Source: a virus (Duplodnaviria; Heunggongvirae; Uroviricota; Caudoviricetes). Taken from it: a stretch of 16,212 nucleotides of DNA. The position numbers were made by a program. The stretch's first letter is position 1. Each line of letters begins with the position of its first letter. Shown here one piece after another: positions 3,639 to 6,600 of the stretch. The stretch covers positions 1-16,212 of IMG/VR virus record IMGVR_UViG_2529293223_000015; one strand, 5' to 3'.

Positions 3639-6600
3639 TGACCACTTCAGTTGTCATGACAGGAAGATGGTTATGCGTAAGTGACGGGAGTTTTTCAATA
3701 GACGTGCGATTCATAGACATGTCCTTTCGAATATTTTGATTTACCCCTTTTGAGAGGGTGACCGGGCGCTCAAAACCGTCGAAAGTCGGCGGGCGTATTT
3801 CCATTGCTGGTATTGTATTAGCCGCACACCCGGTCATAAACCAAGAATTCTGGACACAAAAAAACCACATGGCTATCGGGTGTGGATACCGCTTTCGAGG
3901 TGTTTTGAGCACCGCGGGGAAATGTAAACTGCAAACCTGAAACTGTCAACACCGTCAGGTTCCAATCATCGGGTGGTGAGACGCACAGGGTTGGAACTAC
4001 CGGGAAACCGACCGGCGAGCTTTTCAGCTCCCCCATGCGCCCCACCATAATTCAGATGTGCGCGTGCATACGACAATAAAAAACACGCTCGCGGCGTGTG
4101 TCTGTCGCGGTCTCTATCCGGGGTTCCAATCCCGACGCCAGATTTTGCTGGCGCGTGAGGAATATAGCCCCGGACAATGTGTCTGGTCAAGCACCTACAT
4201 AATTCGTTCTACGTATCTGTCCATCTCCAGCCTGATATCAAGCATCATCAACATGCCATCAATAACCCCTTCCGCTTTCTGCAGGCGCTTGCCAATACAG
4301 GTATCCGAACACCCATGTTTCCGTGCCAGACTCATAAAAGTCATTCCACCTACGTAATAATCCACCAGCAAATCGTGCAAATCCTGATTTTTCTTGTTCA
4401 ACCGGGCCATACAGCCACAAATTATCATTGCATCATCATCAGAACACTGAGGGCGTGATTTCACTTTCGACGGAATTAACCCTTTAAAACCAGCAGCGAT
4501 CGACGCCCAGGATACATCTTCATGAGTGTTTGCAGCCCAAGCCCCCCACCGTTCCATAACCTGCTGAATATCACGCGCCATCGTTATCACCTGTGATTTC
4601 GTAAATCTTCACGCCCAGTCGCCCACCAGGAACGAGCTGACCGCGCACAATATTGATTTCATCAAACTGCTCGTCGTCTATGAGTAGTCCGGCATGCGTC
4701 AGCGCATCCAGTGGTGCTTTCAGGATATTGTCCAGGTCACGACGGCGCTTATCCGGTGGCTCTGCAATAATCTTTATCGCCAGCCTTCCGGACAGGTTTA
4801 ATTTCAGCCGCTGCTGGCGAACAATTAGCGTCACATCACGGCGATAACGCTCACCAACTTTTGATACAAAATATGTGCAGCCACGACGTCGCCAGTAAGT
4901 ATTCACCGTCGGCGGATAAGGTAAAATAAACTCATGGCGCATCAGCGCAGCACCTCCTGCACCATTTTTTCAAACTTTCCAACTTTGGTTTCCAGCTCTG
5001 CCACACAATCAACGAGCTCATCCACCGCTTTTTGTGCGCGATGTTTCGCCTGCATCAGTTCCCTGAGCGCTGGCACCATATCCCGACGAATGGCATCTTT
5101 TGTTACACCTGTTTTTTCCAGTTGTTCCGCCTGTCGCAACATTTCCTGCGCGTGTTTACGCAATTGTTCAGGGGTAAAAGTCATTGTCTGGTTGTTCAAA
5201 AGAAACGCTCCATCTTACTGCTGTCGGTACGTGTATTGCTGTATCTGCGCGGCTGGGGCTGCCGCATTGGGGTGGAAAGAACCTGTGCGCTTTCCTGGTC
5301 CACAGGCAGAAAATGTCCGTTATAAAAACGCCGGTAAATCGTCCCCAGAGAACCGTTACGTTGTTTCGTGATATTAATTTCTGCTATGCCTGTGGCCTGT
5401 GTATCCGGGTTGTACACTTCATCCTAAAGTGCGCAAAATCATTTGATACCGTTTTGAATTTTTTTTGATACCACCCAAAACGGCACAACGAAAAATTATT
5501 TGATACTAATCGGGAGTGCTTTTAGGGTATGGCTGAACCCTGAATAGCTTAGTATTTAGTCGCTTTCTTGCGCGCTTGTTCAGGAACCTGATGTAACGAT
5601 ATTGATTAAATTTGTGTACCACGGCCCGCTCCTTATTCGCTCGTAAATATTCGCCGCGCTTCCCTCCACGATTAATCGCATTCATCGTTATCTCGTGATA
5701 CCACTCACCGTCCAGTTCGTAGAATGTGCTTTCATGGCTGCCAATAAAATCAAAATTTGACGCCTGATACACAACACCTGCACGCCCGCAACGTTCGTCT
5801 GCAAAGGACTGAACCCACTCCACTGACGGATACAGTAACCTGATGGTTTTCAGCGCGTAGCTGATGGCCCGTGATTCAGAGTTGCGGGGCATGTCGTCGT
5901 GTAGCCACATGCGGTTCAGTTCCATATAGCCCCGGTTATCCGTTTCAAGCACAACGCGACGCCCTGAGTTGGGGTTAAGGGCATATCCCCACTGAAGAAC
6001 ACCAACCAGATCACGTCCACTGAATACGCCCAGATGCAACCAGGAGTTATTCACAAAACGGCGGGAATAATGCTTTGTCTGAATGATTGTGCGGGCCAGC
6101 CAGCAGGATATGGTTTCAACGCGCAGCTCCCTTGAACCATAGCCGACAATCCGGCCTTCATACTCAATAACGCAGGGTTTTGTCAGAATGCGTGATTTCT
6201 TCTCTTTTCCCACAATACAGCTCCGTGGGATGCTCCCGGGCACTCGATATGACAATGTAACGTTTACAGCGAGGACATTTGATTTCTATATGCTTAAAAC
6301 CTCCTTTAAACAGCAATTTATTGCAATTTTTACAACGAACAGAGTCCATAATTTCCCCCAGTGTAATAACAGGATATAGCTGCCCGGAGGGCTGGGGGTA
6401 TTTAATCACACTTGATGCAAACCGACGATCGATATGATGCTATCGATCGTCATAAACTATACAAACTGATTATTTAATCGCCTGGTCTGAACGCTCTCAC
6501 CTCGTCCAGTGTGGGCAACAGAGAAAGTTGTTCTTTCATCTCCCGCTGACAGCGATAAATCTCATCGTTGCGCTCAACAATGGCCTGTATCATCGCTGTG

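What the first reader, a model, noticed from the sequence alone, without database searches (positions are those of the whole stretch)
5506..6349. com-mom DNA-modification module with overlapping genes and a non-ATG mom start
Com is recognisable along its whole length including both CxxC pairs. The downstream ORF overlaps com by about 90 nt in another frame, and its plausible start codons are TTG or GTG (6255, 6243, 6213). In Mu, Com binds the mom mRNA to release an occluded start. Mom converts adenine to an acetamido-type adduct that blocks many restriction enzymes, so this is a candidate anti-restriction system. The Mom homolog is diverged enough that substrate and chemistry could differ.
Basis: partly seen in the sequence, partly recalled or inferred. 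Interest (0 to 1): 0.65.

Follow-up and report, generated by a model that had tools for sequence, protein, structure and literature searches.

The report
Ordinary phage Mu-type com–mom operon
This is a textbook com–mom DNA-modification (anti-restriction) operon at the right end of a Mu-like transposable prophage; its Mom enzyme is 97% identical to the crystallised Mu enzyme, so it is a correct but ordinary, already-annotated finding.

Summary

The suggestion that Mom has diverged is wrong. Mom is 97% identical (223/231) to phage Mu Mom and matches PDB 8BV8 at E=1e-153. All ten residues the literature links to activity or dimerisation are conserved. The exact Mom and Com proteins are already in NCBI under those names.

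The working mom start is most likely GTG 6213, not TTG 6255. It is the counterpart of Mu's GUG start, has a GGAG Shine-Dalgarno 7 nt upstream, and gives a 50-nt overlap with com, not about 90 nt. The Com-binding hairpin (6243..6230, loop CC-N3-GAG) and the start-occluding hairpin (6229..6209) are both intact. They fold like Mu's (-10.8 vs -10.7 kcal/mol).

The module lies just inside the right end of a Mu-like transposable prophage. That prophage has inserted into the helicase gene of a lambdoid prophage, with the junction at 5424|5425.

Only the region upstream of com differs clearly from Mu. Two of Mu's three GATC sites are kept. The C-activator site, T6 spacer and -10 are replaced.

Verdict: already known, low interest.

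The parts
6164..6349 (-). com: a 61-aa CCCC zinc-finger translational activator of mom. The ATG has a GGGGG Shine-Dalgarno 5 nt upstream.
   Evidence: 71% identical to Mu Com. Pfam PF10122 above cut-off. The exact protein is on 295 contigs in public data, named 'Com family'. The start matches the RefSeq annotation of the 99.3%-identical locus.
5506..6213 (-). mom: a 235-aa tRNA(Gly)-dependent DNA adenine aminoacyltransferase (GNAT fold). Starts at GTG 6213, stops at TAG 5506-5508.
   Evidence: 97% identical to Mu Mom over 231 aa. PDB 8BV8 E=1.3e-153. Pfam Mom E=2.5e-75. Ten residues linked to activity or dimerisation are conserved. RefSeq annotates the same 708-nt CDS in FDAARGOS_943.
6230..6243 (-). 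Com-binding hairpin in the mRNA: stem GUGC/GCAU, loop CCGGGA. It carries the CC(N)2-3GAG motif. GTG 6243 replaces Mu's upstream in-frame ATG.
   Evidence: Homologous to the Mu 19-mer Com target (PMC6483171). All 11 distinct variants keep all 4 pairs, while the three loop positions between CC and GAG vary. Folds as in Mu.
6209..6229 (-). Translation-inhibition structure (TIS): stem CCCAC/GUGGG. The 3' arm contains the mom GUG start (6213..6211) and the loop holds the GGAG Shine-Dalgarno (6224..6221).
   Evidence: The stem is identical to Mu's. -9.3 kcal/mol against -9.5 for Mu, z=-2.5. 5/5 pairs are kept in all 11 variants and the loop varies. The literature places Mu's GUG start in this stem.
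6350..6473 (-). Regulatory region upstream of com. It is a variant of Mu's Pmom region, and the promoter core was not identified.
   Evidence: Aligned with Mu. No sigma-70 consensus was found. The same allele occurs in about 20 IMG/VR and RefSeq loci.
6424..6451 (.). Perfect 11-bp inverted repeat GACGATCGATA-N6-TATCGATCGTC carrying two Dam sites (GATC at 6427-6430 and 6445-6448). It is the counterpart of the first two GATC sites of Mu's Dam/OxyR control region.
   Evidence: the repeat finder I1. GATC positions. Spacing is the same as Mu's GACGATCGA-N9-ATCGATCG. Dam/OxyR control of Pmom is described in PMC3378877.
5425..5505 (-). Right end of the Mu-like transposable prophage. It lies between the mom stop and the junction, and carries three repeats of the ATTTGATAC type that are candidate transposase-binding sites.
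   Evidence: Identity with the FDAARGOS_943 prophage stops at 5425. Identity with intact lambdoid helicase genes stops at 5424. Repeats reported.

Best explanation
This is a functional-looking com-mom operon, the last transcription unit before the right end of a Mu-like transposable prophage.

**How it works, by homology with phage Mu**
1. Late in lytic growth one mRNA carrying com and mom is made.
2. Com, a 61-aa zinc finger, is translated first.
3. Com binds the CC-N3-GAG loop of a short hairpin (6243..6230) that lies inside its own coding region.
4. The hairpin immediately downstream (6229..6209) otherwise sequesters the mom GUG start (6213) in its stem. Com binding opens it so ribosomes can start Mom.
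5. Mom, a GNAT-fold dimer with a helix-turn-helix-like insertion, transfers glycine from Gly-tRNA(Gly) to N6 of adenine in double-stranded DNA.
6. The adduct rearranges to N6-carbamoylmethyl-dA, which blocks many restriction endonucleases.

**Shown here:** gene identity, intact ORFs, conserved active-site residues, conserved RNA elements, and position at the prophage end.

**Inferred from Mu:** Com-RNA binding, the chemistry, anti-restriction, and late timing.

**Unresolved:** which promoter and activator drive this allele. Two Dam sites of the Mu OxyR/Dam region are retained, so Dam/OxyR gating is plausible.
For: **Identity of the genes**
- DNA is 88% identical to Mu, D108 and SfMu com-mom.
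- Mom is 223/231 identical to Mu Mom. It matches crystal structure 8BV8 at E=1.3e-153 and Pfam Mom at 253 bits.
- Residues Y28, W48, H58, Y59, R111, S124, D149, R151, Y159 and W181 are all conserved. Their roles come from PMC13219725.
- Com is 71% identical to Mu Com with four Cys.

**Start codon**
- The Mu record annotates mom from a GTG with an RBS 8-11 nt upstream. PMC6483171 places the Mom GUG in the TIS stem.
- In the window only GTG 6213 has a Shine-Dalgarno (GGAG).

**RNA elements**
- The two-hairpin fold is the same as Mu's: -10.8 vs -10.7 kcal/mol, identical dot-bracket.
- In 11 distinct variants from 45 loci, 99/99 pair cells are paired. The only stem changes are A-U to G.U and C-G to U.G, and the loops vary freely.
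- A 52%-identical Magnetospira homologue has the hairpin stem changed to ACGC/GCGU with loop CAGGGA. This is a compensated pair, read by eye.

**Context**
- Upstream genes are syntenic with Mu gp42/43-gp50.
- A 99.3%-identical relative in E. coli FDAARGOS_943 is a complete 34-kb prophage with MuA, MuB, Gam and Mor genes, inserted in sslE.
- The exact proteins are already named mom and Com in NCBI.
Against: - No expression or activity data exist for this copy.
- Mu's core promoter is not conserved: the C-activator site, the T6 spacer, the TAAGAT -10 and the third GATC are all missing. No sigma-70-like promoter was found. No motif is shared with the lys or protease upstream regions of the related prophage.
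- The tail-fibre-assembly-like gene just upstream is frameshifted in this copy (T7 vs T8). The left part of the prophage is outside the window. The prophage as a whole may therefore be defective.
- Folding energies of longer contexts are not better than shuffles.
- Stem conservation is confounded by two overlapping reading frames.
Confidence: 0.93

Rival explanations
1. The module is an intact but silent relic. The prophage copy is defective, so com-mom is never expressed, even though the two genes themselves are undamaged.
For: - The DUF4376 gene directly upstream carries a 1-nt deletion in a homopolymer relative to FDAARGOS_943.
- The surrounding region is a patchwork: a Mu-like prophage inside a lambdoid prophage that also carries IS911.
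- No recognisable promoter was found.
- The activator genes are not in the window.
Against: - Both ORFs, both RNA hairpins, the Shine-Dalgarno and all key residues are intact.
- The exact Mom and Com sequences recur on 37 and 295 contigs, which argues for purifying selection rather than decay.
- A T7/T8 difference could be a sequencing error.
Confidence: 0.1
2. This is the first reader's idea: a diverged Mom whose DNA target, donor or chemistry differs from Mu Mom.
For: - There are eight substitutions relative to Mu. Three of them (K191N, Q195K, V198E in the paper's numbering) fall in the helix-turn-helix-like insertion proposed to contact the DNA major groove.
- There are four extra C-terminal residues (STPD).
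Against: - Identity is 97%, with no indels across the 231 aligned residues.
- All ten residues linked to activity or dimerisation are identical.
- The same 90%-identity cluster holds 1295 members named mom.
- Much more distant metagenomic homologues were still active in the published screen.
Confidence: 0.03
3. It is a stand-alone anti-restriction 'moron' of the lambdoid prophage, expressed under that prophage's Q antiterminator, because Q, RusA and lysis genes lie next to it.
For: Q (4195..4590), RusA (4571..4942) and a holin (541..858) lie on the same strand within 1-5 kb.
Against: - Q lies downstream of mom, not upstream.
- Lambdoid homology ends exactly at 5424, inside a truncated replicative-helicase gene.
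- Homology to a Mu-like prophage inserted at a different site begins at 5425.
- The genes upstream of com are Mu-type tail genes.
Confidence: 0.01

Closest known systems
Escherichia phage Mu com-mom operon (AF083977: com 35768..35956, mom 35907..36602; Mom structure PDB 8BV8)
   Same: - Same gene order, same 50-nt overlap and same GUG start with a GGAG Shine-Dalgarno.
- The TIS stem is identical, and the Com-binding hairpin has the CC-N3-GAG loop.
- Mom is 97% identical, with the residues linked to activity or dimerisation conserved.
- It sits immediately inside the right end of a transposable phage.
- The first two GATC sites of the upstream control region have the same spacing.
   Different: - Com is only 71% identical.
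- Mu's in-frame ATG 10 codons upstream of the GUG is GTG here.
- Mom has 4 extra C-terminal residues.
- The third GATC, the C-binding site, the T6 spacer and the TAAGAT -10 of Pmom are replaced by unrelated sequence.
- There is no gin invertase or G segment upstream. A second tail-fibre/DUF4376 pair sits there instead.
- The tail genes are only 29-44% identical to Mu's.
Mu-like prophage of E. coli FDAARGOS_943 (NZ_CP065615.1, 4493843..4528000) and the same allele in IMG/VR contigs and other RefSeq E. coli or Shigella genomes
   Same: - 99.3% DNA identity across com-mom, the upstream region and the prophage end.
- Identical Com protein.
- Same tail-fibre/DUF4376 neighbours.
- Annotated there as 'protein mom' and 'Com family' regulator.
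   Different: - Inserted in sslE rather than in a lambdoid helicase gene.
- Its DUF4376 gene is intact (T8 rather than T7).
Haemophilus sputorum Com (zinc-finger domain used for SELEX, PMC6483171)
   Same: The paper's SELEX with this Com's zinc-finger domain gave the motif GAG(N)2CC / CC(N)2-3GAG in a hairpin loop. That motif is present in the window.
   Different: The paper treats it as a separate Com homologue from another genus. It was not compared with the window here.
tRNA-dependent GNAT enzymes FemX and TacT
   Same: GNAT fold, and aminoacyl-tRNA is used as co-substrate (FemX) or as substrate (TacT). The published Mom structure paper uses both as structural comparators.
   Different: Their substrates differ: peptidoglycan precursor for FemX and tRNA for TacT. 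Mom acts on double-stranded DNA and has the helix-turn-helix-like insertion.

Membership tests
Mom (Pfam PF25680; tRNA(Gly)-dependent DNA adenine aminoacyltransferase, GNAT superfamily) | Full-length match to the family profile above the curated cut-off | tested here: met
   253 bits against a cut-off of 27.1, covering profile positions 1-202 of 202.
Mom (Pfam PF25680; tRNA(Gly)-dependent DNA adenine aminoacyltransferase, GNAT superfamily) | Essential residues R111, S124, D149 and R151, plus H58, Y59, Y159, W181 and the dimer residue W48 (241-aa numbering) | tested here: met
   All are identical to Mu. Their roles are taken from PMC13219725.
Mom (Pfam PF25680; tRNA(Gly)-dependent DNA adenine aminoacyltransferase, GNAT superfamily) | GNAT core with the Mom-specific helix-turn-helix-like insertion (about residues 175-209), which is required for activity | tested here: met
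   Gap-free alignment to Mu Mom and to PDB 8BV8 across the insertion, with three substitutions inside it. No separate structure prediction was run, because 97% identity to a solved structure makes one unnecessary.
Mom (Pfam PF25680; tRNA(Gly)-dependent DNA adenine aminoacyltransferase, GNAT superfamily) | Formation of N6-carbamoylmethyl-dA on double-stranded DNA from Gly-tRNA(Gly), and protection from restriction | not testable with these tools
   Needs expression plus LC-MS and a restriction challenge.
Com (Pfam PF10122 Zn_ribbon_Com; translational activator of mom) | Small protein with a CCCC zinc ribbon and a profile match above the cut-off | tested here: met
   30.5 bits against a cut-off of 22.9. 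Cys at positions 6, 9, 25 and 28. 71% identical to Mu Com.
Com (Pfam PF10122 Zn_ribbon_Com; translational activator of mom) | Cognate RNA target: a short hairpin with CC(N)2-3GAG in the loop, directly 5' of a hairpin that holds the mom start codon | tested here: met
   Present at 6243..6209. The fold is the same as Mu's. 99/99 pair cells are kept in 11 variants. The motif definition comes from PMC6483171.
Com (Pfam PF10122 Zn_ribbon_Com; translational activator of mom) | Com-dependent translation of mom | not testable with these tools
   Needs reporter fusions with and without com, or toeprinting.
Mu Pmom-type transcriptional control (C-activated, Dam/OxyR-gated late promoter) | Three upstream GATC sites forming the Dam/OxyR region | tested here: not met
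   Only two GATC sites are present (6427, 6445). They match Mu's first two in sequence and spacing. The third is absent.
Mu Pmom-type transcriptional control (C-activated, Dam/OxyR-gated late promoter) | C-activator site (TTATgccccAATAA), a 19-bp spacer with a T6 run, and a TAAGAT -10 | tested here: not met
   The region between the GATC sites and the com ATG does not align with Mu. A C-box-like ATACCCCCAG is present, but 23-25 nt from the nearest -10-like hexamer rather than Mu's 28 nt. No motif is shared with other late-gene upstream regions of the related prophage.
Mu-like transposable prophage (context) | The same element end abutting unrelated host sequence at different sites, plus MuA/MuB-type transposition genes | tested here: met
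   The end at 5425 abuts a lambdoid helicase gene here and sslE in FDAARGOS_943. The relative carries Mu transposase, an AAA ATPase, Gam and Mor genes. The left part of this particular copy is outside the window.

The most novel reading that the evidence does not exclude
The variant region upstream of com (6350..6473) is shared by about 20 enterobacterial prophage loci but was not found in the cultured phages searched. It may encode a control scheme for this toxic operon that differs from Mu's Pmom.

It keeps a perfect 11-bp palindrome with two Dam sites but lacks the Mu C-activator site. It also has an inverted repeat, AAATACCCCCAG...CTGGGGGAAATT. If transcribed, that repeat would pair the com Shine-Dalgarno and the sequence up to the AUG with an upstream tract, adding a layer of translational control over Com itself.

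A weaker variant of this reading is that the three substitutions in Mom's helix-turn-helix-like insertion shift its DNA target context.
Probability: 0.15. Interest if true: 0.3.

Novelty: already known. Interest (0 to 1): 0.08.

Why it matters
It matters little beyond correct annotation. The window carries a standard Mu-type anti-restriction module whose enzyme, chemistry, structure and translational switch have all been worked out experimentally.

Three small points are useful:
- Comparing 45 loci shows the GUG in the hairpin stem is invariant, while Mu's upstream in-frame AUG is not conserved. This supports the GUG as the natural start.
- The com-mom cassette is far more conserved (97% aa for Mom) than the tail genes next to it (29-44% aa identity to Mu). 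It therefore moves between distantly related Mu-like phages.
- A common prophage allele has replaced Mu's well-studied promoter core. How that allele is switched on is not known.

Tried and rejected
- **NCBIfam scan** of Mom and Com returned nothing, although RefSeq names the proteins. Pfam and BLAST settled identity.
- **PDB sequence search** with Com found no solved relative.
- **Genome-contig scan** with Mom gave only 3 loci, because it holds one genome per species. The viral-contig scan (43 loci) was used instead.
- **Folding energies** of 68-131-nt contexts were no better than shuffles. Only the isolated TIS (z about -2.5) and the 42-nt two-hairpin unit reproduce the Mu architecture.
- **Covariation.** None was found among close relatives, where the stems are essentially invariant. 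Support for the structure therefore rests on homology to the probed Mu RNA, plus one compensated pair in a distant homologue read by eye.
- **Search for a C-activator-type late promoter.** The C-box-like ATACCCCCAG upstream of com has one other exact pattern match, inside the N-like gene. Its spacing to any -10 differs from Mu's four late promoters. The lys and protease upstream regions of the related prophage share a different motif. The result is inconclusive and the promoter was left unassigned.
- **Lambdoid Q-controlled moron.** Considered and rejected.
- **Link to the tRNA-Gly(UCC) gene 4 kb away.** Considered and rejected as coincidence, because that gene belongs to the other prophage.
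- **Hattman & Sun 1997** (PMC147061) is not held. The detail that the three GATC sites form the OxyR-bound region rests on my own knowledge, the Mu sequence, and the summary in PMC3378877.
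Full report
**Observation**

On the minus strand the window holds an ATG-initiated 61-aa ORF at 6164..6349. Its sequence is [31 protein letters not shown]..., with two CxxC pairs. An uninterrupted ORF in another frame ends at 5506. Its longest mechanical version starts at TTG 6255 (249 aa), and further in-frame GTGs lie at 6243 and 6213.

Pfam assigns the short ORF to Zn_ribbon_Com (30.5 bits, cut-off 22.9). It assigns the long one to the Mom family across the whole profile (253 bits, cut-off 27.1, E=2.5e-75).

**Identity**

The DNA from about 5522 to 6339 is 88% identical to com-mom of phages Mu, D108 and SfMu, and 89.5% identical to several Mu-like Yersinia phages.

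From the homologous start, Mom is 223/231 identical (97%) to Mu Mom with no gaps, plus four extra C-terminal residues (STPD). It matches the crystallised 'methylcarbamoylase mom', PDB 8BV8, at E=1.3e-153. Com is 44/62 identical (71%) to Mu Com.

The exact 235-aa Mom and 61-aa Com sequences are already in NCBI and UniRef. They are named 'protein mom / Mom family adenine methylcarbamoylation protein' and 'Com family ... regulator', and occur on 37 and 295 contigs respectively. In RefSeq E. coli complete genomes, 97 of 5426 genomes have a match. Some carry the current name 'tRNA(Gly)-dependent adenine aminoacyltransferase Mom'.

**Start codon and overlap**

The Mu GenBank record annotates mom from a GTG with a ribosome-binding site 8-11 nt upstream, and a 50-nt overlap with com. 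[quoted passage not shown]

In the alignment that GTG corresponds to window 6213. Of the three candidates, only 6213 has a Shine-Dalgarno: GGAG at 6224..6221, 7 nt upstream. TTG 6255 and GTG 6243 have none. RefSeq's pipeline chose the same 708-nt CDS in the 99.3%-identical locus. The real overlap is therefore 50 nt (6164..6213), not about 90 nt.

The recent structural paper numbers Mom from an ATG ten codons further upstream, giving 241 aa. Every residue it names matches when 10 is subtracted. It also reports that deleting those ten residues is well tolerated. In the window lineage that ATG is GTG (6243). Across 45 related loci this position is either ATG or GTG, whereas the GUG in the hairpin stem is invariant. 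This favours the GUG as the conserved start.

**RNA switch**

In Mu, Com binds a short hairpin just 5' of the TIS and exposes the start signals. SELEX and SHAPE define the target as CC(N)2-3GAG in the hairpin loop (PMC6483171).

The window has both elements:
- the Com-binding hairpin at 6243..6230: GUGC[CCGGGA]GCAU
- the TIS at 6229..6209: CCCAC[GGAGCUGUAUU]GUGGG

The 42-nt unit folds into the same two-hairpin structure as Mu's, at -10.8 against -10.7 kcal/mol. The isolated TIS gives -9.3 against -9.5 kcal/mol, z about -2.5.

From 45 loci I extracted 11 distinct variants. All 99 pair cells are paired. The only stem changes are A-U to G.U and C-G to U.G. The three loop nucleotides between CC and GAG, and the TIS loop 3' of GGAG, vary freely.

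There is no double compensatory change among these close relatives. The region is also constrained by two overlapping reading frames. The structure is therefore supported by homology to the experimentally probed Mu RNA rather than by covariation. A 52%-identical Magnetospira homologue does show a compensated stem, ACGC[CAGGGA]GCGU, read by eye.

**Enzyme and chemistry (from the literature)**

Mom transfers glycine from Gly-tRNA(Gly) to N6 of adenine in double-stranded DNA. All three isoacceptors work. The adduct rearranges on the base to N6-carbamoylmethyl-dA (6-NcmdA). Mom is a dimeric GNAT with a helix-turn-helix-like insertion at residues about 175-209. R111, S124, D149 and R151 are essential or nearly so, and H58, Y59, W48, Y159 and W181 are important (PMC13219725).

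All of these residues are identical in the window protein. The eight substitutions relative to Mu are Q31R, K38R, Y68W, V133T, K191N, Q195K, V198E and K235R. Three of them lie in the insertion proposed to contact DNA. That is the only, and weak, basis for any difference in specificity.

**Context**

Upstream on the same strand are genes syntenic with Mu gp42/43 to gp50: tape measure, N, P, baseplate, tail fibre and its chaperone. They are only 29-44% identical in protein. A second tail-fibre/DUF4376 pair occupies the place of Mu's G(-) segment and gin.

Downstream of the mom stop, identity with a prophage of E. coli FDAARGOS_943 continues to 5425 and then stops. From 5424 downward the window matches the 3' end of intact lambdoid 'replicative DNA helicase' genes. 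RusA, Q, an IS911 copy, an anti-repressor, tRNAs and a holin follow.

The FDAARGOS_943 relative is a complete 34-kb element with Mu transposase, an AAA ATPase, Gam, gp16 and Mor-family genes, inserted in sslE.

Com-mom is thus the last operon inside the right end of a Mu-like transposable prophage that has jumped into a lambdoid prophage. It is not a lambdoid moron under Q control. The contrast between 97% identity for Mom and 29-44% for the neighbouring tail proteins indicates that the cassette is exchanged among distantly related Mu-like phages.

**Transcriptional control: the one real difference**

Mu's Pmom depends on activator C and is gated by Dam and OxyR (PMC3378877 and PMC4461284).

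What the window keeps: TATAG and GACGATCGA-N9-ATCGATCG, that is Mu's first two GATC sites with the same spacing. Here they form part of a perfect 11-bp inverted repeat (6424..6451).

What the window lacks: the third GATC, the C site, the T6 spacer and the TAAGAT -10, which are all replaced.

Further observations:
- No sigma-70 consensus promoter is found.
- A C-box-like ATACCCCCAG is present, but with different spacing from Mu's late promoters.
- No motif is shared with the lys or protease upstream regions of the related prophage.
- An inverted repeat, AAATACCCCCAG (6403..6392) / CTGGGGGAAATT (6361..6350), could pair the com ribosome-binding site in an RNA that starts further upstream. RNAalifold keeps this helix in 11 alleles, with one-sided changes only. 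Whether that stretch is transcribed is unknown.

This upstream allele is common in prophages, at about 20 loci. None of the 13 phage records matched in INPHARED aligns beyond window 6339, so none covers it.

**Verdict**

This is a bona fide, apparently intact com-mom operon of a known kind. It is already annotated in public databases, and its mechanism has been solved in Mu. Interest is low. The only open question is how this promoter allele is activated.

Noticed in passing
window 5424|5425 (context 5196..5505): A Mu-like transposable prophage is inserted in the replicative-helicase (DnaB-like) gene of a lambdoid prophage. Only the C-terminal 70-odd codons of the helicase remain (5196..5424). 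No complete E. coli genome in the collection has this junction.
   Followed up: yes
window 6972..6978 (minus-strand T run) within 6474..7100: The DUF4376 (tail-fibre-assembly-like) gene just upstream of com is split by a 1-nt deletion in a homopolymer: T7 here against T8 in E. coli FDAARGOS_943, where it is a 208-aa ORF. This could be a pseudogene, slippage or a sequencing error.
   Followed up: partly
window 6350..6361 and 6392..6403: The inverted repeat AAATACCCCCAG / CTGGGGGAAATT (30 nt apart) would pair the com Shine-Dalgarno and the bases up to its ATG with an upstream tract. The helix is kept in 11 related alleles with one-sided changes only. It is unknown whether this is an RNA structure or a DNA-level site.
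   Followed up: partly
window 5432..5506: Three direct repeats of the form (A/T)TTTGATAC, with longer 18-nt copies at 5432-5449 and 5489-5506, lie between the mom stop and the prophage end. They are candidate transposase-binding sites. The element ends in ...GCGCACTTTA rather than Mu's ...CA.
   Followed up: partly
window 1437..1747: A cluster of four tRNA genes lies in the lambdoid part: Met-CAU, Arg-UCU, Thr-UGU and Gly-UCC. tRNA-Gly(UCC) is one of the isoacceptors that can serve as Mom's co-substrate, but it belongs to the other prophage, so this is probably coincidence.
   Followed up: partly
window 3752..4167: Rfam hits downstream of the Q gene: C4 antisense RNA (3969..4052), its a1/b1 targets (4115..4167), isrK (4078..4154) and an sRNA-Xcc1-like element (3752..3835). 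This is a P1/P7-type C4/anti-repressor immunity module, with an anti-repressor gene at 1899..2426.
   Followed up: no
window 2398..3652 and 1..300: An IS911 copy (99% identical to the one in Shigella phage Sf6) interrupts the lambdoid late region. A further transposase fragment lies at the window edge.
   Followed up: no
window 7050..10261: Two tail-fibre/chaperone sets sit in tandem on the same strand (9176..10261 + 8443..8988, and 7050..8456 + 6474..7100). There is no invertase, whereas Mu has an invertible G segment and gin at this position.
   Followed up: partly
window 14973..14983 (-): AATACCCCCGGCCC, inside the N-like DNA-circularisation gene, resembles the AATACCCCCAGCCC upstream of com. 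It may be a shared late-promoter element or chance.
   Followed up: partly
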